A stretch of DNA of 56,922 bases from a virus. Taxonomy: Duplodnaviria; Caudoviricetes. Position 1 is the first letter of the stretch. Every line of letters begins with the position of its first letter. Below are positions 1 to 17,550 of this stretch, one piece after another. The notes under the pieces were generated by a model. The model was not told where the DNA came from and did not search any database. It worked only from the letters and a program-made list of their open reading frames with translations. The stretch lies in the IMG/VR virus record IMGVR_UViG_3300037153_000232, positions 1 to 56,922 of that record; one strand, written 5' to 3'. The translations under genes and the position numbers were made by a program.

Positions 1-2
1 GC

Positions 3-194
3 GGCGGCGTCAAGGATGGCACGTACATCACCGTGGCTGGCCACGGCTCCGACAACACCAAGGGGCACTCCAGTGTCGCGGCCTGGCGCTACGCGATGGG
101 GATGCCGTGGGCGATGACTCGCCACGAACTGGCCGAGGCCATCCCGCCCGCCTACACCACCTACATCGGGCGACAGATGCTCGCCTGGCTCTGA
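3..194 (+). CDS. C-terminal fragment of a phage DNA cytosine methyltransferase-like protein (5' truncated)
   Basis: Manual frame-3 translation ends ...AMGMPWAMTRHELAEAIPPAYTTYIGRQML. The EAIPPAYT motif is typical of phage C5-MTase C-termini. Confidence 0.65.
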   Translation, partial: GGVKDGTYITVAGHGSDNTKGHSSVAAWRYAMGMPWAMTRHELAEAIPPAYTTYIGRQMLAWL

Positions 195-204
195 AAGGAA
201 CTAC
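193..204 (+). promoter_or_regulatory. Conserved extended RBS motif GAAAGGAACTAC (copy 1)
   Basis: Identical 12-mer at 193, 2988, 8169, 17062 and 17499. Here it lies 3 nt before ATG 208. Confidence 0.8.
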
Positions 205-207
205 GCC

Positions 208-384
208 ATGAACCCCGTCACCGTCACCATCGTCGCGCATCCTCGCGGCGCAACCTACAAGATCCACCCCGACTGCCAGCCGCTGGCCACCGACCTGACG
301 TGGGAGGTGGTGTGCGACACGCCCTACCCCGCCGCTGAATTGGCCTTCGAGCTTTGCCCGATGTGCCGCGAGGCGCTGGCCTGA
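208..384 (+). CDS. Small Cys-containing hypothetical protein (58 aa)
   Basis: Manual translation MNPVTVTIVAH...LCPMCREALA. Strong RBS; stop overlaps the next ATG. Confidence 0.6.
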   Translation: MNPVTVTIVAHPRGATYKIHPDCQPLATDLTWEVVCDTPYPAAELAFELCPMCREALA

Positions 385-821
385 TGGCCAGGCAGGGCGT
401 GGCCTGCGACCTGTGCGAACTGAACCGCGACATCGCCTGGGTCATCCGCACCGACGAGTTCATCGTGGGCGCGGGCGACGCCGACGCGCCGCTGAGCGAA
501 CTGGCCGTCATGACCACCTTCGGCCAGGACGAGGAGTGGGCGCTGTGCCACGCCTGCAAGCGCGACGTGCTCAACGACGACCAGACGCCGATCATGCGCC
601 GCCGACGCCAGGCGCTGGTGATGGACTCGCCCGAGTGGAACGCGATGACCAGCGCCGAGCGCGACGCGGCGGTGCAGGTGCTGGAGATGACGATCATGGC
701 CGTGCTGTCGTGCAGGCAGAAGCGCTGGGGCCGCGCCTGGACTGCACGGGACGCGGCCCAGGCAGCGGCAGCGGTCGAGCGCGACGGACAGCGCGGGCTG
801 AGGCATGACGGCGCTCAGTGA
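384..821 (+). CDS. Hypothetical protein with two CxxC motifs
   Basis: CDLC and CHAC motifs; TGATG coupling to the upstream gene. Confidence 0.6.
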   Translation: MARQGVACDLCELNRDIAWVIRTDEFIVGAGDADAPLSELAVMTTFGQDEEWALCHACKRDVLNDDQTPIMRRRRQALVMDSPEWNAMTSAERDAAVQVLEMTIMAVLSCRQKRWGRAWTARDAAQAAAAVERDGQRGLRHDGAQ

Positions 822-1611
822 CCTGCCAGCGCGCCCGGGCGTGCCGCTGTGGGTCCGCGACGAGCGCTGGGAGTTCTGGCACGCCTGGCCGACCGACGAG
901 CGCATGGACACACGAGGCCACTCGCGCCTGGCCTGCGGCGACGACTGGACGTGGACCAAGACCACGCGCACGAGCTACCACGTGCTGGCCACTGTCGGGT
1001 GCTACCTGTGCCGCCTGGCGCTGGAGGGCACGCCCGTGCGGCGTCGCGGCCGACCGCGCCACTTGCCCGAAGGCCCCGTGATCGAGCGCCTGCCGAGCGA
1101 CCTGCCGCCGATCCCGCGTACCACGCGCCCGACCTGGCGAGCACGCCAAAAACAGGCCGAACTGGTAGAGGATTCCGCACCAAAAGAGCCGCAGTCTGCG
1201 CCCCAGTCGAGGGTCGAGAAGCTGGTCGCGGCGGGCGCGAAGCTCATCACCTACGAGCGCAACGGTAAGACCGTCATCAGCGCCCACCCCGACAAGGCCA
1301 TCCGAGCGAAGCTGGCCAGCGACGACACCGACGACCTGGCCGACATACCGAGCTTCGAGGTGGGCCGACGCCTGCCCGTCTGGGAGTGTATGCAGTGCGG
1401 GCAGACGCTGGTCTACGGCGACCGCTTCTGTGGGACGTGGTGTGCGCGAGAGCACCGCGAGCAGGAGCGCGCCGACCGCTGGGAGCGTAACGGGTTGATC
1501 GCTGCGCGCTACCACTTCGAGGACGTGCTCTACCGCCGCCCGCGCCGCGACCGCCTCATGGCCTGGACGCCGCCAGCCAGCCAGATTCGACGGGCATCTC
1601 GCTACCGCTGA
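805..1611 (+). CDS. Hypothetical protein with zinc-ribbon motifs
   Basis: 268-aa ORF with CYLC and CMQC...FCGTWC. Confidence 0.6.
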   Translation: MTALSDLPARPGVPLWVRDERWEFWHAWPTDERMDTRGHSRLACGDDWTWTKTTRTSYHVLATVGCYLCRLALEGTPVRRRGRPRHLPEGPVIERLPSDLPPIPRTTRPTWRARQKQAELVEDSAPKEPQSAPQSRVEKLVAAGAKLITYERNGKTVISAHPDKAIRAKLASDDTDDLADIPSFEVGRRLPVWECMQCGQTLVYGDRFCGTWCAREHREQERADRWERNGLIAARYHFEDVLYRRPRRDRLMAWTPPASQIRRASRYR

Positions 1612-1628
1612 TTTTTGTGACGCGAACT

Positions 1629-1695
1629 GTCACCGTAATTGTTGACACGACGGGGCGCTTGACGTATATTCAGTGTGTCGGCCGATGGAGGGCCG
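1629..1695 (+). promoter_or_regulatory. Operator-overlapped sigma70-type promoter with RBS-loop leader hairpin
   Basis: GTCACC-N6-GTTGAC; TTGACA(1642)-17 bp-TATATT(1665); hairpin CGGCC-GATGGAG-GGCCG at 1679-1695. Confidence 0.85.
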
Positions 1696-1700
1696 CAGCG

Positions 1701-2621
1701 ATGAACACGATGACCGCCGAGGTTCTCTCCGATGCAATCAGCTTCGTAGTCGAGCACCAGCCAGCAGGCCGCAAGTTCGAGGTTGGCGATGTGACCGCCG
1801 AGCTTCGAGCAGCCGCCACCACCTACGCGCAGACCTGGCAGGCCGATCCGAAGCACTGGGCCAACAACTTCATGCTGGACATGCGCTCGAACGCCAAGTA
1901 CGACGCGCCGACCGCGACCACGGGCTACAAAGGCTCCAAGGGCCTGAGCGCTGGCCAGATCAAAGGCATCCTGAACGTCATCCGCGCCGAGCAGTCCAAG
2001 AAGGCTCCCGCGCCGAAGGCGACGGTCGCCACGGCCGTGGCCGAGGTGCTCAACGTCAGCCAGGTGCGCACGGCGCGCTTCCGCGTGGTGCCTGACGACG
2101 GTCAGTCGATTGCGGTGCGCCTGAGCGTCCCGACGATGTGGACCGACGCGCCGAAGGGCACGCGCAAGCTGAGCGTCCGCGCCCAGGATGGTTGGATGAC
2201 GGTCGGCAAGGTCGAGCCAGACGGTTCGGTCAAGGTCTTCAAGAAGGCGGGCGAGGCGCTGGAGAAGCGCGTGCGCCAGGCGCTGAACATCCTGGCCAAG
2301 GCCGACGACGATCTGGTCTACATCCTCGACTACGCGATGGAAGGCGGTCACTGTGGGTTCTGTGATCTCGAACTGGATACCGCAGAATCGCTGAGCGTCG
2401 GATACGGCCCGACATGCGCCAAGAAGCACAACCTTCCTTGGGGCGAGAAGGCCGTCCCAGCCAAGGTGCTGCTGGCCAAGGCCGACTACGACATTCAGCA
2501 CGACACAGACGGTGCCGTGGTCAGCCTGGCGGGCTTCAAGCTTCGCCCGTCGGTCTTCTCCGAAGCTGACGATCTGGCTGCTGCCGCCGACCTCGCCAAC
2601 GACCAGGCCGTAGGGAATTGA
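1701..2621 (+). CDS. Phage protein with C-terminal DUF6011-like zinc finger
   Basis: GHCGFCDLELDTAESLSVGYGPTCAK motif. Start moved to ATG 1701, downstream of the promoter and SD. Confidence 0.7.
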   Translation: MNTMTAEVLSDAISFVVEHQPAGRKFEVGDVTAELRAAATTYAQTWQADPKHWANNFMLDMRSNAKYDAPTATTGYKGSKGLSAGQIKGILNVIRAEQSKKAPAPKATVATAVAEVLNVSQVRTARFRVVPDDGQSIAVRLSVPTMWTDAPKGTRKLSVRAQDGWMTVGKVEPDGSVKVFKKAGEALEKRVRQALNILAKADDDLVYILDYAMEGGHCGFCDLELDTAESLSVGYGPTCAKKHNLPWGEKAVPAKVLLAKADYDIQHDTDGAVVSLAGFKLRPSVFSEADDLAAAADLANDQAVGN

Positions 2622-3004
2622 AGCCCTACTACTTGGCCAACCGAGCCTACCTCCAGGCGCTGCGCACGGCCACCCCGTGCGCGCACTGTGGAGGCGGACC
2701 AGTCGAGTGGCACAACCCCGAGCACGTCGAGCGACCGCACCGTCGCATCGGCAACATGACGGGCAGCGCCCGCGCCGCTATCGACGCCGAGCTTGCCCGC
2801 TGCACGCCACTGTGCCGCCGCTGCCACATGGCCGAAGACGGTCGGCTGCGCCGCCTGGTAACCGATAACCCGAACCCTGCTGGTATGCGCCGACCCGCGA
2901 AGGCCTGCGTCGAGTGCGGCTCGACCGCCAGCCAGTACCTGCGGCGTGGCCTGTGCGGACGCTGCTACGACCGACGACGACGATCTCGAAAGGAACTACC
3001 GTGA
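2618..3004 (+). CDS. HNH endonuclease-like zinc-finger protein
   Basis: CAHC...EWH...LCRRCH plus CVEC...CGRC. Confidence 0.6.
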   Translation: MKPYYLANRAYLQALRTATPCAHCGGGPVEWHNPEHVERPHRRIGNMTGSARAAIDAELARCTPLCRRCHMAEDGRLRRLVTDNPNPAGMRRPAKACVECGSTASQYLRRGLCGRCYDRRRRSRKELP

Positions 3005-3153
3005 ACACTGAACCACGCCACCTGTGCGGCCACCTCGCGCTGCACCCGACGCCCGAGACGCCGACGACCTACTGCATCAAGTGCGTCGCCTGGGGCTGCA
3101 CCACGCCGAACTGCCCGGGTCACCAGCGCTGGCCCGACCAGGCCGAGGCGTGA
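3001..3153 (+). CDS. Small Cys/His-rich hypothetical protein
   Basis: GTG 3001 directly after GAAAGGAACTAC (2988-2999). Confidence 0.55.
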   Translation: MNTEPRHLCGHLALHPTPETPTTYCIKCVAWGCTTPNCPGHQRWPDQAEA

Positions 3154-3641
3154 CCGTCGAAGCAGGCCTGGCCTTCGTCAAAGATGATGGCGGGCGTGCC
3201 CACGCGGGCTTCAAAGGCAGGACTGGCGATTGCTCCACGCGGGCCATCGCCATCGCGCTGGGCTTGCCCTACACCGAGGTCTACGACGCGCTCAACGCGC
3301 TGGGCAAGACCTGCCGCATCACCAAGCGCCACCCGAAGCAGTGCTACGCTCGCACGGGCGTGTGCGTCAAAGTGCTCCAGCGCTACCTGGCCAGCAAGGG
3401 CTGGACGTGGCACGCCACGATGGGCATCGGCACGGGCACGACCGTTCACCTGCGCGCTGGCGAGCTTCCCAAGAACGCCAGCTTCATCGCCAGGATCTCG
3501 AAGCACCTCGTGGCCATCGTGGACGGTGAGATCCACGACACGGGCGACCCGTCGATGGATGGGACGCGTGCCGTGTACGGCATCTGGTACCCGCGCTCCG
3601 AGCACCTGAAGTTCCGCCCGAGCGTGACGAGCGAGGCATGA
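3150..3641 (+). CDS. Conserved phage protein, possible papain-like (Cys/His) fold
   Basis: GDCSTRAIAIA...KHLVAIVDGEIHDT pattern. Confidence 0.55.
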   Translation: MTVEAGLAFVKDDGGRAHAGFKGRTGDCSTRAIAIALGLPYTEVYDALNALGKTCRITKRHPKQCYARTGVCVKVLQRYLASKGWTWHATMGIGTGTTVHLRAGELPKNASFIARISKHLVAIVDGEIHDTGDPSMDGTRAVYGIWYPRSEHLKFRPSVTSEA

Positions 3642-3780
3642 GCCGCGACGTGAACGGCTGCCTGGTCATCACCGTAGGCTGCGCCGTGCTGGTCGGCAGC
3701 GTGCTGCTGCTGGCTGGCCTGGCGTTCACCGTGGCGCTGGGCTACCGCCTGCCGTGACACCTTTTTTGTTGACCGAATCT

Positions 3781-3847
3781 GTCACCGTAATTGTTGACAC
3801 CAACACCCCGACGGGGTATCTTGCATCCAACGGCCGATGGAGGGCCG
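3781..3847 (+). promoter_or_regulatory. Operator-overlapped sigma70-type promoter with RBS-loop leader hairpin
   Basis: GTCACCGTAATTGTTGAC; TTGACA(3794)-17 bp-TATCTT(3817); CGGCC-GATGGAG-GGCCG at 3831-3847. Confidence 0.85.
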
Positions 3848-3852
3848 CAACC

Positions 3853-4161
3853 GTGAGCATCAGCGCTCAACCGACCTACTTCTTCATGACGGTGGACTAC
3901 ACCGAACCGCGCACCGTCGAGAACCCGACCGAGGCCGACTACGCGGCCACCCGCGCCACCTACCGTGGCGTGCGCCTGCGGATCGAGTACGGCCAGGACT
4001 GCAAGGCCGTCAAGGTCTTCAACACGGGCGAGTTCGCCAGCGACTACCAGGCAGCCGTGACGCACGTGCAGACGCTCTCTGGCGAGCGTGAGGTGCCCTT
4101 CATGGGCAGCAGCACCGTGGACAGCTACATGTACGACGCGGGCTACGAGGAGGCCGTCTGA
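3853..4161 (+). CDS. Hypothetical early protein
   Basis: GTG start after the leader hairpin; phage-like codon usage. Confidence 0.65.
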   Translation: MSISAQPTYFFMTVDYTEPRTVENPTEADYAATRATYRGVRLRIEYGQDCKAVKVFNTGEFASDYQAAVTHVQTLSGEREVPFMGSSTVDSYMYDAGYEEAV

Positions 4162-4418
4162 TGGCCTCCCGCGCACCCGTGACCAGCGCGGCGGTGCTGC
4201 TGGTGATGGCCGACGCCATCGAGGTCAGCCGCGAGCACGAGCGCATCGCGCTGTATCAGTGGCGCGAGATCCTCACCGACGTCGCTTTCGAGCGCGCCTG
4301 GACTGAGAACGACGGGCAGAGCGTCCACGACGGGCGCACGATGTACGCGCTGCTGGACCTGGCGCGCAAGGCGGGCCTGACGGTCGCGGCCTGGAAAGAC
4401 GGGGTACGCATCGCGTGA
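4161..4418 (+). CDS. Hypothetical protein
   Basis: 85-aa ORF, translationally coupled. Confidence 0.6.
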   Translation: MASRAPVTSAAVLLVMADAIEVSREHERIALYQWREILTDVAFERAWTENDGQSVHDGRTMYALLDLARKAGLTVAAWKDGVRIA

Positions 4419-4566
4419 GCGACCCGTTCGGCGTCATCATCACCCTCCAGCACATCGCGGCCAACTGCGAGGCCATCGGTCACGACCTCCAGCGCATCGC
4501 CATCGTGCTCGCGCCGCTGGGCGGACTGGTGGCCGACTTCGCCAGCCACTGGTGGGCGAGCGTCTC

Positions 4567-5103
4567 GTGAGCCGCCGCACCAAGCAGCAGGCGCAGGCCA
4601 GGCGCGCAGCGGCGCTGACGGGTGAGGACCGTTTGCCGCCGTGGACGCCCTTCGTGGAACTGCCGCCCGCGCCGCCGACACGCGAGAAGCTGGAGACGCT
4701 GGCCCGGGTTTCGGGCAAGACCGTCGAGGCGATTCAGGACTACATCCTGGCCGACATGCTGGGCGCGACGTACTGGAACAACAGCCGCTACTACGTCATC
4801 AAGAAGAAGGAGCCGCGTGCTGACGGGCTGGGCTGGGTCTGGCACCTGAGCTTCCGCCGTCAGGATCGGCAGCCCGTCGGGCGCGAGCACTTCCGCGACT
4901 TCCAGCGCATCAAGAACGAGCTACTCGGGCCGCAGGCCACGGCCATCGAGATCTACCCCGCCGAGGACCGTCTGGCCGACACCTCCAACCAGTACCACCT
5001 GTGGGCCTACGACGACCTGCGCGGCTTCCCCTTCGGGTTCTACGACCGCGCCGTGCTCGACGCGGGCCAGGGTCTGGTGCAGAAGCCACTGGACGAGGAC
5101 TGA
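4567..5103 (+). CDS. DUF7694-like phage protein
   Basis: WHLSFRR...RDFQRIKNELLG...AIEIYPAEDRLADTSNQYHLW pattern. Confidence 0.6.
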   Translation: MSRRTKQQAQARRAAALTGEDRLPPWTPFVELPPAPPTREKLETLARVSGKTVEAIQDYILADMLGATYWNNSRYYVIKKKEPRADGLGWVWHLSFRRQDRQPVGREHFRDFQRIKNELLGPQATAIEIYPAEDRLADTSNQYHLWAYDDLRGFPFGFYDRAVLDAGQGLVQKPLDED

Positions 5104-5105
5104 GC

Positions 5106-5741
5106 ATGAGCCTGTACCACCTGACCAGCATCTACCACCTGCCGATCATCATGCAGGCGGGCTTCCTGAAGATCACCGAGTCGAACATCTCGCTGATCCC
5201 GCACGAGGAGCATGTCGGCCCCGACGTGGTCTGGCTGACGACCAGCCCGCGCTCGGGCCAGGGCTGGGCGCGGATGCGGCCCGAGTTCGCCTACGTGGAC
5301 AAGACGCGCATCCTGTTCGAGCTAGAGCTACCCGACGCCGACGTGCACAACTGGCACGACTGGGCGCTGGCGCATGGCAGCACGCTGCACTTCATGAAGG
5401 CGCTGGCCTCGTCGGGCGACGAGCGGCACCCGCTGGGCTACCGCGTGGGCGACGACGGCGAGGCGGACCTGGCGGCGCTGGAGCGTGCCCGAGCCGAGTG
5501 GTTCGTGATCGAGCGCGAGGTGCCGTGGGTCGAGTGGACGCGCATCACCGACCAACTGGCGGGCACCGTGCTCTGGCAGCGCGACGAGGCGCAACTGCGA
5601 GCGGGCGAACTGGCCGTGCCGCCGCTGCTGAAGATCGCGGGCAACGACTGGCGCACGCCTGGCACGCTGCTGAGCCGCCCGCTGCCCGTGACCGTGGCGA
5701 CACGCGACGAGTGGCAGCGCCAGCTACGCGACAAGAACTGA
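5106..5741 (+). CDS. Hypothetical protein, possible ADP-ribosyltransferase-like fold
   Basis: N-terminal LYHLTS..HLPIIMQAGFL and VWLTTSP resemble ART strands 1 and 2. Confidence 0.4.
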   Translation: MSLYHLTSIYHLPIIMQAGFLKITESNISLIPHEEHVGPDVVWLTTSPRSGQGWARMRPEFAYVDKTRILFELELPDADVHNWHDWALAHGSTLHFMKALASSGDERHPLGYRVGDDGEADLAALERARAEWFVIEREVPWVEWTRITDQLAGTVLWQRDEAQLRAGELAVPPLLKIAGNDWRTPGTLLSRPLPVTVATRDEWQRQLRDKN

Positions 5742-5758
5742 TCGACCGCGCCCCGGAG

Positions 5759-5801
5759 GTCACCGTAATCGTTGACAACGGCGACCACGGGGCGGCATAC
5801 T
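5759..5801 (+). promoter_or_regulatory. Operator-overlapped sigma70-type promoter
   Basis: GTCACCGTAATCGTTGAC; TTGACA(5772)-18 bp-CATACT(5796). Confidence 0.75.
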
Positions 5802-5821
5802 GTGTGCAACGAGGTAAACCC

Positions 5822-6721
5822 GTGACGACGACGAACGACGAACTGAAACTGGCTGGCGACCCCGACGCGCAGCAGGACAACCCCGAAGAGGCCTTCGACA
5901 TCAACGAGCAGCATCCCGAGGCGACCGACAGCGGCATCGAGGTGGACGCCAGCGACGTGGTCAGCCTGGCCAAGGCTGTGAGCGCGGGCGTGCCCATCGG
6001 CAAGCTGGTCGAGGAGCACCAGGCGACGCAGCTAACGACGCACACGTGGACGCCTGGCGCGGCCTGCCCGATGCGCAGCCACAACCGCAAGGTCGGCAGC
6101 CTGGTCGGTGTCTACAACCTGAAGCACCCCGCCAACACGATCCGCGTACCGAACTTCGTGACGGGCGTGAACTGGCTGGCCAGGTGCGAGACGCACGAGG
6201 CGGACCTGTACACGACCACCTTCGGGCCAGCGTGGAAGGCGCGCAATCGGCCGTGGGAGTTCTGCCCGGGTTGTGAGTCGATCTTCAACACCAAGCACGG
6301 CGGCAAGGCCGCGCAGAAGGGCAAGAAGGCCAGCACGGTCAAGGTCGCGCCCAAGCCCGAGCCGAAGGCCAAGAAGCTGAAGGGCGAGGCCAACGGCAAG
6401 GCGGTGCTCGAAGCGGCGCTGGAGGCCATCAAGCCAGAGCCTGCACAGGGGCCGCAGGAAGCCGCCTGGACGCCTGTCGAGTCTGCGGACGATCCAGAGG
6501 AGGCGGTCTGGAACGAGTGGTCACAGAGCCTCGCCAAGGCCATCCCCGCAGGTGCCCGCGTGGACTGGGTCACCGACTACCACTACCGCGTGGTGCTGAA
6601 GGACAAGCGCGAGATCGACCTGATGGTGCACAAGGGCACGGCTACCTTCCGCCACCGAGACGCGTCGGGTCACGATCACTACGCCGACGACATCCAGTCG
6701 ATGCTGGCCGAGATCGGCTAG
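5822..6721 (+). CDS. Hypothetical protein with acidic N-terminus, Zn-binding motif and Lys-rich linker
   Basis: GTG 5822 after GAGG; CETH...FCPGC. Confidence 0.6.
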   Translation: MTTTNDELKLAGDPDAQQDNPEEAFDINEQHPEATDSGIEVDASDVVSLAKAVSAGVPIGKLVEEHQATQLTTHTWTPGAACPMRSHNRKVGSLVGVYNLKHPANTIRVPNFVTGVNWLARCETHEADLYTTTFGPAWKARNRPWEFCPGCESIFNTKHGGKAAQKGKKASTVKVAPKPEPKAKKLKGEANGKAVLEAALEAIKPEPAQGPQEAAWTPVESADDPEEAVWNEWSQSLAKAIPAGARVDWVTDYHYRVVLKDKREIDLMVHKGTATFRHRDASGHDHYADDIQSMLAEIG

Positions 6722-6734
6722 GCCTATAGTGGGA

Positions 6735-6826
6735 GCGGGCCTCCATCGCCCGCCGAGCGCCTGCGGGCCAGGTGCTCGCAAGAGAGCGTCTGGCGCAGGG
6801 GTCACATCCCGCCAGGCGCTCTTTTT
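6735..6826 (+). ncRNA. Candidate three-hairpin small RNA with anti-RBS loop CTCCATC
   Basis: TATAGT box at 6725-6730; hairpins 6735-6753, 6754-6778 and 6783-6822 followed by a T-run; intergenic. Confidence 0.6.
6783..6826 (+). terminator. Intrinsic terminator
   Basis: AGAGCGTCTGGCG...CGCCAGGCGCTCT stem followed by TTTT. Confidence 0.7.
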
Positions 6827-6838
6827 GATGCTGGATCT

Positions 6839-6881
6839 GTCACCGAAATTGTTGACAGGAGAGGCCGACGGGGCGTATATT
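6839..6881 (+). promoter_or_regulatory. Operator-overlapped sigma70-type promoter, probably leaderless transcript
   Basis: GTCACCGAAATTGTTGAC; TTGACA(6852)-18 bp-TATATT(6876); ATG 6 nt later. Confidence 0.8.
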
Positions 6882-6887
6882 CTGAGC

Positions 6888-7379
6888 ATGACGCAGACAT
6901 TGATCGCTCCGACAGCCGCCGACGACGGCGTGCTGATCCGACCAGGCATGAGCGAGTCACAGAACCATTACGAGAACAAGACCGAGGTCGCCATCTACGT
7001 GATCCTCGATCCCGAGATGGGCCGCGTGCTGATGGAGTACCGCCTCCCGCCGTGGCCACCGATCAATCAGTGGTGCTTCGGCTCTGGCCGCGTGGACAAG
7101 GGCGAAGACGGCAAGCACGCCGCGCTGCGCGAGCTTCACGAGGAACTGGGCCTGTTCGCCTGCGAGGTGGCCGACCTGGGCAGCTTCGAGGACGCCAACG
7201 GCCGCACGTTTCACCCGTGGCTGATCCTCGACTGGGCTGGCGAGATCCCCGTCACCAACGCCGACGAGAAGTACCCGCTGGCCTGGTGGGACGTTGACCG
7301 ACTGCCGCACGGCTGCAACGCCGTGACCCACGCCGTGGCGAACCGCGTCAAGCGCTTCATCGCCAGCCGCGACTACTGA
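6888..7379 (+). CDS. NUDIX hydrolase
   Basis: Nudix box GRVDKGEDGKHAALRELHEELGL. Confidence 0.9.
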   Translation: MTQTLIAPTAADDGVLIRPGMSESQNHYENKTEVAIYVILDPEMGRVLMEYRLPPWPPINQWCFGSGRVDKGEDGKHAALRELHEELGLFACEVADLGSFEDANGRTFHPWLILDWAGEIPVTNADEKYPLAWWDVDRLPHGCNAVTHAVANRVKRFIASRDY

Positions 7380-7391
7380 GGAGACACCCCG

Positions 7392-8102
7392 ATGCGATGG
7401 ACGCCCGACGTGACCTGGCAGGCGAGCAGCCTGGCCGACGACGACGAGATTGAGTGGCTGACGCTGAGCAAGAAGGACCGCAAGCGGCTGAAGAAGGCCG
7501 CGAAGCGCGCCCGCAAACAGGCCGCGTGGCAGCAGACGCTGCCGACGTTCGTGCGCACCACGGCCAACCATCGGCGCGAGGCGCAGGTGCGCCTGGAGGA
7601 CGTGCCCGAGACGCCCGGGCTGCGCGTGATCTTCACCGACTTCGACGGCGTGCTGAACCAGCATTCGAGCGGCAGCTACCTGCTGAAGCGCGAGCAGGTC
7701 GAGCGCCTGGACAGGCTTGCCCGCGAGACGCGGGCCGTGGTGGTGGTCACCTCGTGGTGGCGCTGGATCGGCGTCGAGCGGCTGCGCGAGGATCTGGCCA
7801 GCGCGGGCTTCCACGGTCGGCTGATCGGGCGCTCGCCGTGGCTGGGCGAAAACGAGCAGTGGGACGCCTGGGAGCGCGGCCAGGAGATCGACGCGGTGCT
7901 GCGCTATCTGGACGGCCGAGTCGAGAGCTTCGTCATCCTTGACGATCACAACCGTATGGGCAACCTGCTGCCGTATCTGGTGCAGACAACCGCCTCCGAG
8001 GGCCTGACCGAGGCCGATTGCGAGATGGCAAAGGGTATCCTGTTGAATCCAGTACCCCGTCAGCCGTTTGCGTCAGGTGTCTACGAGATGGTTGACGCCT
8101 GA
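7392..8102 (+). CDS. HAD-family phosphatase (Swiss-Army-Knife RNA-repair-type HAD)
   Basis: IFTDFDGVLN, VVVTSWWR, RGQEID and FVILDD motifs. Confidence 0.85.
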   Translation: MRWTPDVTWQASSLADDDEIEWLTLSKKDRKRLKKAAKRARKQAAWQQTLPTFVRTTANHRREAQVRLEDVPETPGLRVIFTDFDGVLNQHSSGSYLLKREQVERLDRLARETRAVVVVTSWWRWIGVERLREDLASAGFHGRLIGRSPWLGENEQWDAWERGQEIDAVLRYLDGRVESFVILDDHNRMGNLLPYLVQTTASEGLTEADCEMAKGILLNPVPRQPFASGVYEMVDA

Positions 8103-8121
8103 ATCAGCGCCAAGCTATACT
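8079..8121 (+). promoter_or_regulatory. Operator-like site and promoter
   Basis: GTCTAC-N6-GTTGAC; TTGACG(8092)-18 bp-TATACT(8116). Confidence 0.7.
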
Positions 8122-8183
8122 CTGTCGTGCCGCCCGAACGGGGCGGCGTTCGCGGCAACCAGCCGCAGGAAAGGAACTACATC

Positions 8184-9320
8184 GTGAAGCAGGGTCTGAC
8201 CCTTACACAGTTCGCGCAGACCATTCAGGAGCGCGACGCGGCCAAGGCCGACTACCTGGCACCCGTGCCGCTGATCGACGTCAACACCAATGGCCACACC
8301 AGCCTGGTGCTGCGCGACGTCGAGGACGCCAGCGGCAACGAGCTTGCGCCGCTGACCATCGGCAACACGGCGCACGGCCAGCTTGCCAGCTACCTGGGCG
8401 TGCCCAAGGCCTTCTACGACCACGTGCTGCGCAACACCAGCACGATCCGCGACCCGAACGACCCGACGCAGCCGCTGTACGACACGCTCATCAACGGCCT
8501 GCTGCGCGCCTGCCCGCCCGACGACGCCCGCCTGGTGCGCACGCTCAACGGCACGGCCCGCGCCTGGCTCAGCGACCGCTACCGCCAGATGGACAATCTG
8601 GAGATCCTGACGCGGCTGCTGCCCGTCATCCAGCAGTTGCCCGCCGTCAACTGGGAGCAGTCGAGCCTTCAGGTGACCGAGGACCGCATGTACCTGCAAC
8701 TGGTGGACACCAGCAAGCCCAAGGTCATCAAGAGCGGCCACCAGCGCGTGGACGACGTGCTCCAGCGCGGCGTGGTCATCACCAACAGCGAGGTCGGCCT
8801 GGGCAGCTTCGCGGTGCAGCCGCTGGTCTTCCGCCAGGTGTGCTCCAACGGCCTGGTCATCACCGAGTACGCGCAGCGCCGCTTCCACGTCGGCGGGCGC
8901 AACAGCGGCGACGCGGGCATCGTCTGGCAGTCGGATACGCAGAAGGCGCGCAACGAGACGACGATCCTCGAAATGCGTGACCTGATGAAGATGGCCATGT
9001 CGGACGAGTTCCTGAACAAGATCGCGGCGCGGGCGCAGGACGCGGCCGACCTGCCGATCAAGGGTGCGCAACTGGAGCCAGTGGTCAAGAACGTGACCGA
9101 GCGCTTCCGACTCAACGGCGACGAGCGCGACGCGATGTTCAACCACCTCGTGGAGGGCGGCGACCTGAGCCTGTGGGGCCTGGTCAACAGCATCACCCGG
9201 GCGGCGCAGGACGTCGAGAGCTACGACCGCAGCGTCGAGCTACAGGCCATCGGCGGCAACATCCTGGCCTTGCCCAAGCACGACATCACCGCGCTGCTGA
9301 GCGAGGTGTCGCCTAACTGA
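8184..9320 (+). CDS. DUF932/DUF945-family phage protein
   Basis: LSDRYRQMDN, ITNSEVGLGS, QVCSNGL and LWGLVNSIT motifs; GAAAGGAACTAC RBS at 8169. Confidence 0.75.
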   Translation: MKQGLTLTQFAQTIQERDAAKADYLAPVPLIDVNTNGHTSLVLRDVEDASGNELAPLTIGNTAHGQLASYLGVPKAFYDHVLRNTSTIRDPNDPTQPLYDTLINGLLRACPPDDARLVRTLNGTARAWLSDRYRQMDNLEILTRLLPVIQQLPAVNWEQSSLQVTEDRMYLQLVDTSKPKVIKSGHQRVDDVLQRGVVITNSEVGLGSFAVQPLVFRQVCSNGLVITEYAQRRFHVGGRNSGDAGIVWQSDTQKARNETTILEMRDLMKMAMSDEFLNKIAARAQDAADLPIKGAQLEPVVKNVTERFRLNGDERDAMFNHLVEGGDLSLWGLVNSITRAAQDVESYDRSVELQAIGGNILALPKHDITALLSEVSPN

Positions 9321-9341
9321 AGACGCCAGCGTGCGAGATCG

Positions 9342-9372
9342 AGGCCAGGCCAACCGCCTGGCCTTTCGTCTT
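9342..9372 (+). terminator. Probable intrinsic terminator
   Basis: AGGCCAGGC-CAACC-GCCTGGCCT followed by TTCGTCTT. Confidence 0.55.
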
Positions 9373-9395
9373 GTATGGGGCATGGAGCAGCAGCC

Positions 9396-9662
9396 ATGAA
9401 CGAGCAACGCATGAGCCTGGCCGAGCAGTGGCGGATGTGCACGCGCAAGAAGCGCTACTCCACCCGAGCGCTTGCCGAGGTGCAGGTCACCAAGATCTGG
9501 CTGGCGGGCAAGGGCCACGGCCTGAAGGTCTACCTGTGCCGCGTGCCCGAGCAGGAGGAGCACTGGCACGTCGGCCATCTGGTGCCGTGGTGGTGGCGTC
9601 ACGTTGGTGACATCGAGGACAACCCGCCCGACACTGAATCACGACCAGACGACAACTTCTGA
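9396..9662 (+). CDS. Hypothetical protein
   Basis: CTRKKRY...YLC...HWHVGH pattern; GGAG SD. Confidence 0.55.
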   Translation: MNEQRMSLAEQWRMCTRKKRYSTRALAEVQVTKIWLAGKGHGLKVYLCRVPEQEEHWHVGHLVPWWWRHVGDIEDNPPDTESRPDDNF

Positions 9663-9666
9663 GATG

Positions 9667-9691
9667 AGAGGCGGCAAGAGCCGCCTCTTTT
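9667..9691 (+). terminator. Intrinsic terminator
   Basis: AGAGGCGGC-AAGA-GCCGCCTCT followed by TTT. Confidence 0.75.
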
Positions 9692-9865
9692 GCGTATGTG
9701 AACGTGTGCGATGTGGTCATGCCCAACGCGCACGCCTTCGCATATGTAGTGCGCGAGGGTCTTTGCAACAAGACTTGCGGCGCGCAGGAGGTGCTGTATG
9801 CTTGGCCTCGCCAGTCACCAGATTCGGTGGCAGGACGCATACATCCCGAGGAGAGGGACGAACAC

Positions 9866-10873
9866 ATGGCAACCATGACGGTTGAAGACGCGGTCAACGC
9901 GGCGCTGGCGAGTCATCCAGCGCGGCACCTCCAGACCGAGGCGCTCATGCGCGAGCGCATCGGGCCAGAGGGCAAGAAGTGGCAGTTCCTGGGCAACGTG
10001 CAGCGCACGTCCATGAACCTGCGCCCAGACGGTAACAGCTTCCGTCTGATCGAACACATCAAGAAGGACAAGGTCGAGGCCATCGCCTCGAAGGTGGCCG
10101 AGGGCGTGGTCATGCCCGCCGTGATCGTCACCAAGTCGGGGCGACGCCTGGTCGAGGGCTACCACCGCTGGCACGGCTACGAGCGCGCTGGCGTGGGCGA
10201 GATCGCCGCCTACGAGGTCGATCTCGACACCGACTCGCTCGACCAGTTCATCATCGAACTGACGCAGATGGCGGGCGACAAGCTCTCACCCGAGGAGGTG
10301 AAGATGCTGTCGCTGCGCTACATCCAGCGCGGCTTCGCTGAGTCGCGCATCGCCTCGATGCTCAACGTGCCGCTGAGCACGCTGCGCCAGTGGGCGGCAA
10401 TCTCGAACCTCCAGCGCCGCCTCCAGACCACGGGCAACACCTACGACCTGACGGGGTGGAGCAACCGCACGTGCAGTATGCTGCACTCGATCCGCAACCT
10501 GCCGACGCTGGTGGCGGCGGTCGAACTGGTCCGCGACGCCCACCTGAAGGGCAACGAGGTGGTGGCCATCGTCACCGCCATCCGCAGCGCGCAGAGCCAG
10601 TCCGAAGAGCTTCAGATCCTGCGCGACCAGCGCGATGCGATGAAGGACCGCATCAACACGCCGCAGGTGCACCTGAACGGCCCCGCATACACGCGCCCCA
10701 TCTGGATGCAGTCGCTCCCCGCGCTGAGCCTGCTGACCAAGTACACCGCCGAGCAACTGGTGGACACCGCGCCGCAAGATCAGGTGGTCCGCCTGATGAC
10801 GCTGTGGGCTGGCGTCAGCACGCTGGCAGAGGAGGCTGTGAAGCGCCTGGGGGAGCGTGGTGGCGACAAGTAA
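9866..10873 (+). CDS. ParB/Srx-like domain protein 1 with HTH
   Basis: MPAVIV...LVEGYHRW motif, then IASMLNVPLSTLRQW. Confidence 0.75.
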   Translation: MATMTVEDAVNAALASHPARHLQTEALMRERIGPEGKKWQFLGNVQRTSMNLRPDGNSFRLIEHIKKDKVEAIASKVAEGVVMPAVIVTKSGRRLVEGYHRWHGYERAGVGEIAAYEVDLDTDSLDQFIIELTQMAGDKLSPEEVKMLSLRYIQRGFAESRIASMLNVPLSTLRQWAAISNLQRRLQTTGNTYDLTGWSNRTCSMLHSIRNLPTLVAAVELVRDAHLKGNEVVAIVTAIRSAQSQSEELQILRDQRDAMKDRINTPQVHLNGPAYTRPIWMQSLPALSLLTKYTAEQLVDTAPQDQVVRLMTLWAGVSTLAEEAVKRLGERGGDK

Positions 10874-12251
10874 GCCCTACGTCAAACGTGTCCTGAACTT
10901 GCTGCGCGAGGCCCGACCCGGGGGCCTCGCCAGGCAGCAGGTGCTGACCGAGGGCGCGTACTTCGTGGACGAGCAGGCCGCGTCCGTCCACGGCGCGTTC
11001 CTGGCCAACGTGCCCGACAACGAGCAGGTGCTGTTCGAGCGGCGCATAGCCATCGTCGGCGGCGAGGTCGAGCGGCTGATCGCCCGGGGCGTGATCGTGC
11101 ACAGCCAGGCCGACGACACGCTCTACAGCCAGGACGTGGGCGTGCCCGTGCTGCGCTACGTGGCCCGCGCCGACATCCAGAGCGACATCCCGGGACTGGA
11201 GCGGCACACGCTGGAAGGCGTGCACGAACTGGCCGAGTCCATCAACAAGCAGGGCCTGCTGCACCCCATCCTGCTGGCCACGACCGATGGTCAGGTCTAC
11301 CACCTGGCGGCGGGGCATCGACGGCTGGCAGCGCACGAGCAACTCGACAGCCCGTACATCCTGGCGCGGGTGTGGGCCGTGGACGACGACGACCTGCACG
11401 ACGTGGTCATCACGCTGCGCGAGCACGAGAATCTGTGGACCCAACCGCTCACTGAGGAGCAGCAGGCGCAAGCACTGGCGCAGCACCAGGCCGATCTGGA
11501 AGCGGTCGCGGCGGCAGACGCGGCTGACCTGATCGCACGGGGCAAGGAACTGCGGAACTACGCGCAGAAACGTGTTCGGGGTCCATCCAAAAAAGGTGGT
11601 AACGCTGGTGTTACCACCAAACGCGATAACAGTAGGCGGTCGGCGCAGCAACTGGCCAAGGAGAAGGGCATCAGCGTCCGAGCGGCACGCGATGCCATCG
11701 CACTGTCAGAGCTACAGGAGCGCCTGGAGGCGCGCACCAAACGCAAGCGCTGGGGCACCGAGCACAAGGACTACGTGCCTGGCACGATGGTCATGCTGAC
11801 CGCCATGAACCTGCTGGGGCAGATCCAGGGCGCATCCGCCGAGGAGCGTCTGGCCGTGTCGAAGGCGGCGCTGAAGACGATCAAGCAGGTCGAGCACGAG
11901 GACTACGAGCGCTGGCGCGCCGAGACGCACGACGGCACACAGAAGACGGCCGCGCAGATCGCCAAAGAGAAGGAGGCTGCGGACAACCACGACTCCGACT
12001 CGGCAAAGGCAGCGTTGCTGGCCAGGCGCGGGCGCAGCCTGCCCGACATCGCCCGCAAGCTGAACATCAGGCCCGAGCGCGCCGAGCAACTGGTCGCGCA
12101 CGGCGAAACGTTGTTGCCGCCTGTCAACAAGTCTGGATACCATGTTGGGCAGGCCCAACCAGATGAGATGGGCCTGCCTCACGAGCACGGCTGGAAAGTG
12201 GTCCAGGCGCGCTGGTGTGAGACGTGTGGACAGATGGAGGTCCAAGCATGA
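10857..12251 (+). CDS. ParB/Srx-like domain protein 2 with HTH motifs
   Basis: ELAESINKQGLLHPILL...LAAGHRRLAA...EHENL; LPDIARKLNI. Confidence 0.85.
   Translation: MVATSKPYVKRVLNLLREARPGGLARQQVLTEGAYFVDEQAASVHGAFLANVPDNEQVLFERRIAIVGGEVERLIARGVIVHSQADDTLYSQDVGVPVLRYVARADIQSDIPGLERHTLEGVHELAESINKQGLLHPILLATTDGQVYHLAAGHRRLAAHEQLDSPYILARVWAVDDDDLHDVVITLREHENLWTQPLTEEQQAQALAQHQADLEAVAAADAADLIARGKELRNYAQKRVRGPSKKGGNAGVTTKRDNSRRSAQQLAKEKGISVRAARDAIALSELQERLEARTKRKRWGTEHKDYVPGTMVMLTAMNLLGQIQGASAEERLAVSKAALKTIKQVEHEDYERWRAETHDGTQKTAAQIAKEKEAADNHDSDSAKAALLARRGRSLPDIARKLNIRPERAEQLVAHGETLLPPVNKSGYHVGQAQPDEMGLPHEHGWKVVQARWCETCGQMEVQA
11595..11618. repeat. Perfect inverted repeat GGTGGTAAC-N6-GTTACCACC inside the ParB-like gene
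   Basis: Read directly; sits in a locally AT-rich patch. Confidence 0.7.
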
Positions 12252-17476: not shown

Positions 17477-17550
17477 AAAAGCCCGCCACTTGTGCCGCGA
17501 AAGGAACTACTCAAACTCGGCTGGCGGGCTTTTGAAAGGCGAAAAATCCT
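17477..17550 (-). ncRNA. Candidate antisense small RNA in the replication-gene leader, loop GTAGTTCCTTTC
   Basis: Minus-strand TTGCGC(17584-79)-16 bp-TACTAT(17562-57); bidirectional terminator-like stem AAAAGCCCGCCA/TGGCGGGCTTTT at 17477-17533. Confidence 0.5.

What the first reader, a model, noticed from the sequence alone, without database searches (positions are those of the whole stretch)
6725..6826. Candidate trans-acting sRNA whose loop matches the RBS loop of two distant early genes
Seen: a TATAGT box, three consecutive hairpins and a T-tail in an intergenic gap. Hairpin 1 is GCGGGC-CTCCATC-GCCCGC. The genes at 1701 and 3853 share the leader hairpin CGGCC-GATGGAG-GGCCG (1679-1695, 3831-3847), which displays the Shine-Dalgarno in its 7-nt loop. 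The two loops are exact reverse complements. Over 17 nt the sRNA (GCGGGCCTCCATCGCCC) matches the leader's reverse complement (GCGGCCCTCCATCGGCC) at 15 positions. GATGGAG also precedes starts at 12248, 19931 and 30394. Known: loop-loop initiation (ColE1 RNAI, CopA) and trans-acting phage antisense RNAs (P1 C4). Inference: a phage sRNA that shuts off translation of a set of early genes.
Basis: partly seen in the sequence, partly recalled or inferred. Interest (0 to 1): 0.85.

Follow-up and report, generated by a model that had tools for sequence, protein, structure and literature searches.

The report
Phage anti-ribosome-site hairpin pairing early leaders
A small folded RNA at the end of one early phage gene shows a loop that matches, letter for letter, the ribosome-binding loops that open two or three other early messages, and the two loops change together in a related phage, so it very probably throttles early protein synthesis by RNA-RNA pairing.

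Summary
Positions 6722-6826 hold a TATAGT box, three hairpins and a T-run. Hairpin 1 (6735-6753) displays CTCCATC. This is the exact complement of the Shine-Dalgarno loop GATGGAG of the leader hairpins at 1679-1695 and 3831-3847.

Four related uncultured phages keep a hairpin at the same place, after the stop codon of the same gene. The loop core CCTCCA is invariant, and the stem changes with compensation.

Each of the 4 genomes where both partners are visible has 9 contiguous complementary letters. In L037 all three leaders read GCTGGAG and the hairpin reads CTCCAGC, a concerted A:U to C:G switch. Sister phages differ in loop allele.

My best reading is a 3'-UTR-borne, possibly processed, anti-Shine-Dalgarno RNA. 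It would kiss the 5'-terminal leader hairpins of the early operons and lower their translation.

An own promoter at TATAGT is unlikely, because it lies only 3-5 nt from the hairpin. No RNA data exist, and only five genomes could be read. No Rfam family matches.

This scan has noted kissing loops within single phage leaders elsewhere. None of the 8 findings shown is this long-range arrangement.

The parts
5772..5801 (+). Early promoter (TTGACA-18-CATACT) of gene 5822-6721. The operator-like motif 5758-5777 overlaps its -35 box.
5822..6721 (+). Gene of unknown function (299 aa, invariant Cys/His columns). The regulatory hairpin lies in its 3' end. In the window and in L031 its own leader lacks the Shine-Dalgarno-loop hairpin that its homologues carry in L035, L036 and L037.
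6726..6731 (+). TATAGT box, A/T-rich and predicted single-stranded or in a small loop. It is 4 nt before hairpin 1. It is probably not the -10 of an RNA that contains hairpin 1, and it could be a processing site.
6735..6753 (+). Hairpin 1: 6-bp stem and 7-nt loop CUCCAUC (6741-6747). With its flanking letters it reads CCUCCAUCG, which is complementary to 9 nt of the leader hairpins. This is the regulatory loop.
6754..6778 (+). Hairpin 2 (10-bp stem, 5-nt loop). A second hairpin is present only in the window and in L037, so it is an optional spacer.
6780..6826 (+). Terminator-like long hairpin with T-run 6822-6826. It ends the transcript of gene 5822-6721. An equivalent GCGCCTGGC...GCCAGGCG hairpin plus a T-rich tail occurs in all four relatives.
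   Evidence: the simple terminator scan does not call it
6852..6881 (+). Next early promoter (TTGACA-18-TATATT). It drives the NUDIX gene, whose ATG at 6888 lies 6 nt after the -10 box, so the message is leaderless. It marks the downstream border of the element.
1642..1670 (+). Early promoter (TTGACA-17-TATATT) of target operon 1.
1679..1695 (+). Target leader hairpin 1: CGGCC-GAUGGAG-GGCCG. It starts 8 nt after the -10 box and ends 5 nt before ATG 1701. The Shine-Dalgarno sequence sits in the loop.
3794..3822 (+). Early promoter (TTGACA-17-TATCTT) of target operon 2.
3831..3847 (+). Target leader hairpin 2. It is identical over 19 nt to the first, starts 8 nt after the -10 box and ends 5 nt before GTG 3853.
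12227..12244 (+). Possible third target: TGGAC-AGAUGGAG-GUCCA, 3 nt before ATG 12248. It is not promoter-linked and not conserved in relative G001, so its membership is doubtful.

Best explanation
**What it is.** The gap 6722-6826 is the structured, non-coding 3' end of the transcript of early gene 5822-6721. In order it holds an A/T-rich patch, hairpin 1, an optional hairpin 2 and an intrinsic terminator.

**The two partners.** Hairpin 1 holds out CCUCCAUC(G) in a 7-nt loop. This is the CCUCC core of the 16S anti-Shine-Dalgarno sequence, lengthened by a phage-specific AUC(G). Two early operons in this phage, and three in its relatives, begin with a 5-6-bp hairpin that starts 7-10 nt after the -10 box. 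[quoted passage not shown] This hairpin holds out the operon's own Shine-Dalgarno sequence, (C)GAUGGAG(G), in a 7-nt loop. In 10 of 12 leaders the loop hairpin ends 4-6 nt before the start codon.

**Proposed mechanism.**
- The two loops pair with each other as a kissing complex over 9 contiguous complementary nt.
- This takes the Shine-Dalgarno sequence away from the 30S subunit.
- Translation of these early operons falls, and mRNA stability perhaps falls too.
- The regulator is made from an early promoter of the same type as its targets. It would therefore act as a delayed negative feedback, an early shut-off.
- It could act either as the 3' UTR of the whole mRNA or as a stable 3' fragment of about 90-100 nt cut off near the A/T-rich patch.

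**Shown here:** the anatomy, conservation, compensatory stems, loop complementarity and its covariation.

**Inferred:** transcript ends, pairing in vivo, the direction of the effect and any processing.
For: 1. **Conserved position.** The hairpin follows the stop codon of the same gene in 5 of 5 sequences: the window, L035, L036 (= L033), L037 and L034.

2. **Conserved loop, compensated stem.** The loop core CCTCCA is invariant. In register, 28 of 30 stem cells pair, and 4 of the 6 pair positions show changes on both sides.

3. **Leaders.** I read 12 leader hairpins from 5 genomes.
- The loop is G(A/C)TGGAG.
- The stem pair at columns 9-23 is G-C in 8 and A-U in 4, and it is never broken.
- All sit 7-10 nt after a -10 box.
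- They precede orthologous genes.

4. **Covariation.**
- In each of the 4 genomes with two or more leaders, all leaders carry the same loop.
- In all 4 of these genomes the hairpin and the leaders share 9 contiguous complementary nt: CGATGGAGG in the window and L036, ATGGAGGGC in L035, CGCTGGAGG in L037.
- L037 has GCTGGAG in 3 of 3 leaders and CTCCAGC in the hairpin.
- L036 and L037 are sister phages yet differ in allele. So do L035 and L034.

5. **Uniqueness.** Whole-record scans found exactly one fully complementary anti-loop hairpin per genome, always at the same relative position.

6. **Pairing energies of the loops, as linear duplexes.**
- Own pairs: -15.0 kcal/mol (window, L036) and -17.0 (L037).
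- Pairs between the A:U-type and the C:G-type: -10.3.

7. **Accessibility.** The anti-loop is predicted unpaired with mean probability 0.86-1.00 in 5 of 5 sequences.

8. **Non-coding.**
- All three frames have stops in L035, L037 and L034.
- The distance from the stop codon to the T-rich tail ranges over 84-133 nt.

9. **Transcription unit.** The region lies between a canonical promoter plus gene and the next canonical promoter.

10. **Chance.** The expected number of such a loop is 0.0036. The 9-mer count is 4 against 0.70 expected.
Against: - **No expression data.** No RNA run is listed, so transcript ends, abundance and processing are unknown.
- **Few genomes.** Both partners are visible in only four genomes, and there are only two loop alleles. 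The covariation therefore rests on one fully documented co-switch (L037). L034 (hairpin only) and L039 (leader only) add half-observations.
- **L035 is weaker.**
  - Its loop is CTCCATAA, with 6 of 7 loop letters complementary.
  - Its own-pair energy of -10.8 is no better than cross pairs.
  - Its 9-nt match needs three stem letters on each side.
- **Leader accessibility is mixed.** In a 100-nt context the leader loops are predicted unpaired at 0.9 or more in only 6 of 11 cases. They fall to 0.15-0.56 in the other 5.
- **A naive duplex scan does not single out the leaders.** Scanning the plus strand with 6739-6750 ranks them 6th and 7th of 11,380 windows, behind five coding sites. Specificity must therefore come from loop display.
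- **Stoichiometry.** A 3' UTR made 1:1 with one of three or four equally built operons could not titrate its targets unless the fragment outlives them.
- **Missing cis partner.** In this window the regulator's own gene has lost its leader hairpin.
- **The simple terminator scan does not call the terminator**.
Confidence: 0.6

Rival explanations
1. The same loop-loop repressor is made as an independent sRNA of about 90 nt, from its own promoter whose -10 box is TATAGT (6726-6731), and ends at the shared terminator.
For: - A TATAGT or TATTGT box stands at a fixed short distance before the hairpin in 3 of 5 sequences: the window, L035 and L036.
- An A/T-rich hexamer is conspicuous in 67% G+C DNA.
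- An own promoter would solve the stoichiometry problem.
- By recollection, the P1 c4 RNA is made without induction of the lytic genes.
Against: - The box ends 4, 3 and 5 nt before the hairpin. The true early promoters leave 7-10 nt. A usual start site would therefore remove part of the 5' arm, yet that arm is maintained by compensatory changes.
- No acceptable -35 box exists, and the scan calls no promoter in the window or in L035.
- L034 has no such box, and L037 has TATCAT 9 nt away.
- In L035 and L036 the box falls in the loop of a small predicted hairpin.
Confidence: 0.17
2. The interaction is purely in cis. The 3' UTR hairpin pairs with the leader hairpin of its own mRNA, as in icaR of Staphylococcus aureus, and controls only gene 5822-6721.
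For: In L035, L036 and L037 the homologue of gene 5822 starts with a Shine-Dalgarno-loop hairpin. There one mRNA carries both loops. A precedent exists: PMC3868564 (search listing and start of abstract seen).
Against: - In the window, and in L031, the gene's own leader has no such hairpin, yet the 3' hairpin is kept.
- Two other operons in each genome carry the same loop and co-switched in L037. A cis-only role does not explain this.
Confidence: 0.07
3. The leader hairpins are sites for a protein. Candidates are a CsrA-type protein, a lambda-N/boxB-type antiterminator or another RNA binder, or a DNA-binding protein that reads GATGGAG in either orientation. On this view hairpin 1 is an inverted copy of that site, or a decoy, and RNA-RNA pairing is incidental.
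For: - Identical loops within a genome would also follow from one shared protein.
- A double-stranded site reads the same in both orientations.
- By recollection, early-promoter-proximal hairpins recall nut sites.
Against: - On the transcribed strand, hairpin 1 shows the complement of the leader motif, not the motif itself. All genes run on the plus strand, and no minus-strand promoter is called in 1-12000.
- The arms vary with compensation while the spacer is fixed. This is the signature of a folded single strand, not of dimer half-sites.
- The L037 loop CUGGA breaks the A-N-GGA motif.
- The hairpin-to-start-codon distance is tight, 4-6 nt in 10 of 12 leaders. This ties the leader to ribosome binding.
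Confidence: 0.1
4. Nothing regulatory is present. The hairpins are only 3'-end stabilisers and a terminator, and the loop match is chance helped by the frequency of CTCC/GGAG.
For: - GGAG is the ribosome-binding core, so any CCUCC loop is partly complementary to it.
Against: - The chance expectation is 0.0036 in the window alone.
- The hairpin recurs at the same place in four relatives whose neighbouring protein is 49-57% identical.
- The loop is more conserved than the stem.
- The only variable loop letter is the pairing partner of the only variable leader letter, and the two vary complementarily.
Confidence: 0.06

Closest known systems
c4 antisense RNA of phages P1 and P7 (review PMC12197685, passage read). 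By recollection only, also the related CI RNA of P4.
   Same: - It is a phage-encoded, trans-acting RNA.
- Short complementary stretches, thought to lie in loops, bind around a ribosome-binding site of the phage's own mRNA and block translation.
- Specificity differs between related phages (P1/P7 heteroimmunity), like the A:U and C:G alleles here.
   Different: - c4 targets one mRNA (ant) for prophage immunity. Here 2-3 dispersed early operons carry the target.
- Here the target is itself a 5'-terminal hairpin that displays the Shine-Dalgarno sequence.
- Here the regulator sits in the 3' end of a protein-coding early transcript.
- There is no Rfam match of any kind.
- The lifestyle of this phage is unknown.
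icaR 5'-3' UTR pairing in Staphylococcus aureus (PMC3868564; listing and start of abstract only; details recalled)
   Same: A C-rich anti-Shine-Dalgarno motif in a 3' UTR pairs with the Shine-Dalgarno region at the 5' end and lowers translation. In L035, L036 and L037 one mRNA carries both partners.
   Different: - icaR acts within one mRNA.
- Here two further operons carry the same loop, and in this window the cis partner is missing.
- Here the pairing is loop to loop.
C-rich-loop sRNAs of Gram-positive bacteria: the 6C sRNA of Mycobacterium (PMC6486639; listing and title only) and, by recollection, RNAIII and the Rsa RNAs of S. aureus
   Same: C-rich hairpin loops bind G-rich ribosome-binding regions of several mRNAs, and the 6C title says this happens without RNA chaperones.
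   Different: - Those are stand-alone bacterial sRNA genes with degenerate targets.
- Here there is a single loop with a 9-nt exact match to a dedicated, co-evolving target hairpin in a phage.
Kissing-loop antisense control of plasmids: ColE1 RNAI/RNAII and R1 CopA/CopT
   Same: Recognition starts between complementary 6-8-nt loops on stable hairpins.
   Different: - Those RNAs are cis-encoded and fully complementary.
- Here the partners are encoded 2.9 and 5.1 kb apart, and they share 9 contiguous nt, about 15 of 17 in all.
Start-associated sequences (SAS) of Cluster K mycobacteriophages (PMC3203893, passages read). Their role is still called unknown in PMC11373665 and PMC12699233 (passages read).
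   Same: - It is a repeated motif, GGG-ATAGGAG-CCC, that extends beyond the Shine-Dalgarno core, with symmetric outer letters, a few nt before the start codons of non-structural genes.
[quoted passage not shown]
- In Anaya that copy sits at the apex of a long predicted hairpin in an intergenic region, on the transcribed strand.
   Different: - The sequence is different, with 0 matches in the window at up to 2 mismatches.
- SAS occurs in 11-19 copies and is not tied to promoters.
- No covariation is available.
- The apical loop differs in Ekdilam, Amgine and Keshu.
- This is an analogue, not a member.
3'-UTR-derived sRNAs of enterobacteria, such as CpxQ and SroC (recalled)
   Same: The regulator shares the terminator of a coding transcript and may be released by cleavage just after the stop codon.
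   Different: - Those use Hfq and single-stranded seeds.
- Here the seed is a hairpin loop.
- The host is unknown, and processing is not shown.

Membership tests
Any Rfam family (including antisense and phage sRNA families) | Match to a curated covariance model at its gathering score | tested here: not met
   There were 0 matches in the whole window at gathering scores. At E up to 10 on 6650-6900 there were only three weak hits: ctRNA_pGA1 at 15.9 bits against a gathering score of 45, and two eukaryotic families.
tRNA / tmRNA | ARAGORN detection | tested here: not met
   0 genes were found in the window.
Loop-loop (kissing) antisense regulators | Complementary 6-8-nt loops displayed on stable hairpins in both partners | tested here: met
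   The two loops, CUCCAUC and GAUGGAG, are 7 nt each on stems of 5-6 G/C-rich pairs. The anti-loop is predicted unpaired at 0.86-1.00 in 5 of 5 sequences. The leader loops reach 0.9 or more in 6 of 11.
Loop-loop (kissing) antisense regulators | Covariation that keeps the intermolecular pairs | tested here: met
   All 4 genomes with both partners keep 9 contiguous complementary nt. L037 switched A:U to C:G in 3 of 3 leaders and in the hairpin. The sample is small.
Loop-loop (kissing) antisense regulators | Physical complex and a regulatory effect | not testable with these tools
   This needs binding assays, toeprinting and reporter assays.
cis-encoded antisense RNA (ColE1 RNAI, CopA) | Transcribed from the strand opposite its target, so fully complementary to it | tested here: not met
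   The regulator and its targets lie on the same strand, 2.9 and 5.1 kb apart. They share 9 contiguous nt.
3'-UTR-borne or 3'-UTR-derived regulatory RNA | Lies between the stop codon and the gene's own intrinsic terminator, with no promoter of its own | tested here: met
   - The stop codon is at 6719-6721 and the terminator-like hairpin plus T-run at 6780-6826.
- No promoter is called at TATAGT.
- The layout is the same in four relatives.
3'-UTR-borne or 3'-UTR-derived regulatory RNA | A discrete stable 3' fragment seen in RNA | not testable with these tools
   No RNA holder is listed.
Intrinsic (Rho-independent) terminator | G+C-rich hairpin directly followed by a T-run | tested here: inconclusive
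   The fold gives a 20-pair hairpin ending in TTTTT at 6822-6826, and the relatives have T-rich tails. The simple scan, which allows loops of 3-8 nt, calls no terminator here or in L035.
Cluster K SAS | 13-bp consensus GGGATAGGAGCCC with at most 2 departures, just before start codons | tested here: not met
   There are 0 matches in the window. Anaya's right arm has 17.
CsrA-type binding site | GGA in a hairpin loop within an A-N-GGA context, bound by CsrA | tested here: inconclusive
   AUGGA is present in 8 of 12 leader loops, and CUGGA in the other 4. Protein binding cannot be tested here. The complementary hairpin is not explained by CsrA.

The most novel reading that the evidence does not exclude
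The hairpin loop and the leader loops may form an RNA specificity code that governs competition between related phages. A phage already in the cell would make the anti-loop RNA and so silence the early operons of any incoming relative that carries the same loop allele. Switching all leaders and the hairpin together (A:U to C:G) would escape this silencing.

This would be an RNA-only heteroimmunity system built on a mimic of the 16S anti-Shine-Dalgarno sequence. It would explain two observations:
- Sister phages (L036/L037 and L035/L034) carry different alleles.
- Every leader within one genome carries the same allele.

The same logic might explain the unexplained SAS motif of Cluster K mycobacteriophages and its single inverted copy.
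Probability: 0.18. Interest if true: 0.85.

Novelty: new variant of a known kind. Interest (0 to 1): 0.68.

Why it matters
Phage-encoded regulatory RNAs that act on the phage's own genes are few. The listed examples, such as c4 of P1 and P7, concern one target.

Three features set this case apart:
- One hairpin appears to control a small regulon of early operons.
- Those operons are marked by a dedicated 5'-terminal hairpin that displays the Shine-Dalgarno sequence.
- A single base pair of specificity has flipped between sister phages.

If confirmed, this would be a compact design for post-transcriptional early shut-off that needs no chaperone. It would also be a natural pair of orthogonal RNA switches, A:U-type and C:G-type, ready for compensatory-mutation tests.

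It further offers a testable hypothesis for the start-associated sequences of Cluster K mycobacteriophages. Their role was still called unknown in 2024-2025 papers.

Tried and rejected
**Database searches on the window**
- Rfam at gathering scores gave nothing. Rfam at E up to 10 gave only three weak hits below threshold.
- The tRNA/tmRNA search gave nothing.
- GenBank phages searched with 5500-8500 gave no match in near or distant mode.
- The large terminase is at most 28% identical to any cultured phage, so the host stays unknown.

**Searches for more relatives**
- The promoter/operator pattern gave 25 stretches. Only the known relative had more than one match.
- The leader pattern added only L039, which has a leader but no 3' end.
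7 of 111 new loci passed my filter, and none is a relative.
- The promoter-core 15-mer gave 31 stretches and no new relative.
- The protein scan of genome contigs gave no relative.
- The pattern scan of genome contigs gave 60 stretches, all chance matches. Many lie in one repeated element of an alphaproteobacterial MAG.
The contigs of about 15 further homologues therefore could not be read.

**Expression**
- No RNA holder is listed.
- Laying three DNA runs (contigs) gave no variant inside 6722-6826. One 317-nt contig ends at 6748.

**Analyses that led nowhere**
- Pair counts on the MAFFT alignments of hairpin 1 were misleading, because L035's 8-nt loop shifts its 3' arm by one column. I replaced them with an in-register count.
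- A naive duplex-energy target scan does not put the leaders first. They rank 6th and 7th of 11,380 windows.

**Readings considered and rejected**
- A third target at 12227 is absent before the homologue in G001.
- A second anti-like hairpin in G003 at 9886 (loop CTCCAGG) lies just after the stop of an ORF, at the start of what looks like a small hydrophobic reading frame. I read it as chance.
- The AUG inside the leader loop is not a start codon, because it is CUG in L037.
- An ORF from GTG 6729 runs in frame into the NUDIX gene. I rejected it as coding because L035, L037 and L034 have stops in all frames there, and the NUDIX domain starts at residue 33 of the 6888 start.

**Papers**
- The search for print on a phage 3' hairpin pairing with early Shine-Dalgarno loops used. 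Among the rows listed (15 of 70, 10 of 106, 1 of 1), nothing matched. Supplements of papers were not opened.
Full report
**Setting.** The window is a complete IMG/VR virus record of 56,922 bases. It has 67% G+C, and essentially all long high-GC3 reading frames lie on the plus strand. Its large terminase is at most 28% identical to that of any cultured phage, and DNA searches of GenBank phages find nothing. The phage is therefore new and its host is unknown. The only listed holders are soil metagenomes.

The left 8 kb is an early region built from repeated cassettes. Five strong sigma-70-type promoters lie on the plus strand at 1642, 3794, 5772, 6852 and 8092, against 0.7 expected. Four of them are overlapped at the -35 box by the motif GTCACCG-AAT-GTTGACA, which has 4 matches against 0.00 expected. 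Each of the four is preceded by a T-run.

**The observation.**
- After the TAG of gene 5822-6721 come TATAGT (6726-6731), hairpin 1 GCGGGC-CTCCATC-GCCCGC (6735-6753), hairpin 2 (6754-6778) and a long hairpin ending in TTTTT (6780-6826).
- The fold is much more stable than shuffles: -61.7 kcal/mol, z = -4.23, and 0 of 200 shuffles fold as well.
- The next promoter starts at 6852. It drives a NUDIX gene whose ATG (6888) lies 6 nt after the -10 box, so that message is leaderless.
- The two leader hairpins CGGCC-GATGGAG-GGCCG begin 8 nt after their -10 boxes and end 5 nt before ATG 1701 and GTG 3853.
- The shared 9-mer CGATGGAGG occurs 4 times in the window against 0.70 expected, and 0 of 100 shuffles reach 4.
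- Among the 75 plus-strand hairpins with a 7-nt loop and at least 5 stem pairs, 0.0036 would be expected to carry CTCCATC.

**Relatives.** The neighbouring protein has 21 relatives in the large protein collection, counting the window's own copy. Scans with an alignment of 20 of them recovered the locus from IMG/VR and JGI metagenomes:
- L035 (57% identical protein);
- L036, the same sequence as L033 over the stretch read (51%);
- L037 (49%);
- L034 (51%);
- L031, which covers only the upstream side.

A pattern scan added L039, which has a leader only. Further scans found no more relatives.

**Conservation of the 3' element.** In all 5 sequences the same gene ends with ...ATCGGC-stop, and a hairpin with the loop core CCTCCA follows within 7 to 19 nt.

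| Sequence | 5' arm | Loop | 3' arm |
|---|---|---|---|
| window | GCGGGC | CTCCATC | GCCCGC |
| L035 | CGTGCC | CTCCATAA | GGCACG |
| L036 | GTGGGC | CTCCATC | GCCCAC |
| L037 | TAGGGC | CTCCAGC | GCCCGA |
| L034 | GCGGGC | CTCCAGC | GCCCAC |

- In register, 28 of 30 stem cells pair, and 4 of the 6 pair positions show changes on both sides.
- Automatic alignments shift L035 by one column and understate this.
- A terminator-like hairpin (GCGCCTGGC...GCCAGGCG) with a T-rich tail follows in every relative. A middle hairpin exists only in the window and L037.
- The stretch is non-coding. All three frames hold stops in L035, L037 and L034, and its length ranges from 84 to 133 nt.

**Conservation of the leaders.** The relatives carry three promoter-proximal hairpins each, 7-10 nt after a -10 box, with the loop G(A/C)TGGAG.
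- They precede orthologous genes: a 73-74-aa Cys-rich protein, the homologue of gene 3853, and the homologue of gene 5822 itself.
- Over 12 leaders, the second stem pair is G-C in 8 and A-U in 4, and it is never unpaired. The three inner pairs never vary.
- The hairpin ends 4-6 nt before the start codon in 10 of 12 leaders, and 9 and 11 nt before it in the other two.
- In the window and in L031, gene 5822 has lost this leader.

**Covariation between the partners.**
- In each of the 4 genomes with several leaders, all leaders share one loop.
- The window, L035 and L036 have GATGGAG (2, 3 and 3 copies). L037 has GCTGGAG (3 copies), and L039 has one GCTGGAG.
- The 3' hairpin reads CTCCATC in the window and L036, and CTCCAGC in L037. 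The only variable leader letter and the only variable hairpin letter are therefore pairing partners, and they vary as A:U against C:G.
- All 4 genomes keep 9 contiguous complementary letters. In L035 the match is 6 of 7 within the loops and extends into the stems.
- Whole-record scans found one fully complementary anti-loop hairpin per genome.
- On a tree of the neighbouring protein, L036 and L037 are sisters, and L035 and L034 are sisters, both with support 95 or more. Each pair differs in hairpin allele. The allele has therefore changed at least twice, or has moved by recombination.
- Loop duplex energies favour own pairs (-15.0 and -17.0 kcal/mol) over pairs between allele types (-10.3). 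L035's own pair is only -10.8.

**Mechanism.** The leader displays its Shine-Dalgarno core (GGAGG) across the loop and the first stem letter. The 3' hairpin displays CCUCC, which I recall as the core of the 16S anti-Shine-Dalgarno sequence, plus AUC(G). The simplest reading is a kissing complex that competes with the 30S subunit.

The regulator lies inside a transcription unit bounded by a canonical promoter and a terminator-like hairpin. Three points count against TATAGT as its promoter:
- it lies too close to the hairpin (3-5 nt, against 7-10 nt at real promoters);
- it lacks a -35 box;
- it is not conserved in L034 or L037.

I therefore favour a 3'-UTR-borne regulator, perhaps released as a stable fragment. 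Repression, timing and processing are all inferences.

**Weak points.**
- There are no RNA data.
- Only four genomes show both partners.
- Leader loops are predicted open at 0.9 or more in only 6 of 11 cases.
- An unstructured energy scan does not rank the leaders first.
- Stoichiometry is unclear.

**Comparison with known systems.** No Rfam family matches.
- In logic it is closest to the c4 RNA of P1 and P7.
- It also resembles 3'-UTR anti-Shine-Dalgarno pairing in icaR (listing only) and the C-rich-loop sRNAs such as 6C (listing only).
- It differs from all of these in having dedicated, co-evolving target hairpins on several early operons.
- Cluster K mycobacteriophages offer an analogue. 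Their start-associated sequence GGG-ATAGGAG-CCC has one inverted copy in K1 phages. In Anaya that copy sits at the tip of a long predicted hairpin between genes 96 and 97. The region is conserved in 138 records.
- The apical loop is CCTCCTATCCCC in 5 of the 8 phages I aligned, and it differs in the other 3. This is a lead, not a test.
- Earlier findings of this scan describe kissing loops within single phage leaders. 61 findings match my search words and 8 were shown. None of those shown is a long-range arrangement like this one.

**Verdict.** This is a new variant of a known kind of regulator, awaiting RNA and binding data.

Noticed in passing
window 1628-1647, 3780-3799, 5758-5777, 6838-6857: An operator-like motif, (T)GTCACCG-AAT-GTTGACA, overlaps the -35 box of four early promoters. 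It has 4 matches against 0.00 expected. Variants occur in relative L004. It is probably a repressor site.
   Followed up: partly
window 6876-6890; also L035, L037 and L034 downstream of the element: In the window and L034 the gene after the element starts 6-7 nt after its -10 box, so its message is leaderless. In L037 and L035 the gap is 8-9 nt, a very short leader. Early genes of this phage group thus come in two kinds: leaderless (or nearly so), or with a 5'-terminal hairpin that displays the Shine-Dalgarno sequence.
   Followed up: partly
window 12227-12244: The hairpin TGGAC-AGATGGAG-GTCCA lies 3 nt before ATG 12248, inside the end of the upstream gene. It is not found before the homologue in relative G001 (L154).
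   Followed up: yes
window 49258-49276: The hairpin ACGAC-CCGATGGAG-GTCGT lies inside a coding region and holds the same 9-mer as the leaders. It could be an off-target site or chance.
   Followed up: no
window 193, 2988, 8169, 17062, 17499: The 12-mer GAAAGGAACTAC occurs 5 times against 0.03 expected. The copy at 17499 sits in a hairpin followed by a T-run.
   Followed up: partly
L155 (Mycobacterium phage Anaya) 39850-39900, record 59849-59899: The single inverted SAS copy lies at the apex of a long predicted hairpin, in a structured intergenic region between genes 96 and 97. That region folds with z = -4.29 and is conserved in 138 Cluster K records. Some records annotate it as a hypothetical protein. 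It may be an anti-SAS RNA.
   Followed up: partly
L036 9833-9975: In this relative the third leader hairpin precedes a 40-aa Cys-rich reading frame that stands in front of the homologue of gene 5822.
   Followed up: no
window 1685-1687 and 3837-3839: The leader loop GAUGGAG contains an AUG in another frame. In L037 it is CUG, so it is unlikely to be a start codon.
   Followed up: yes
L199 and about 25 other loci of one alphaproteobacterial MAG: The leader search pattern hit a many-copy repeated element by chance. From its translation I guess it is a transposase gene. It is unrelated to the phage.
   Followed up: partly
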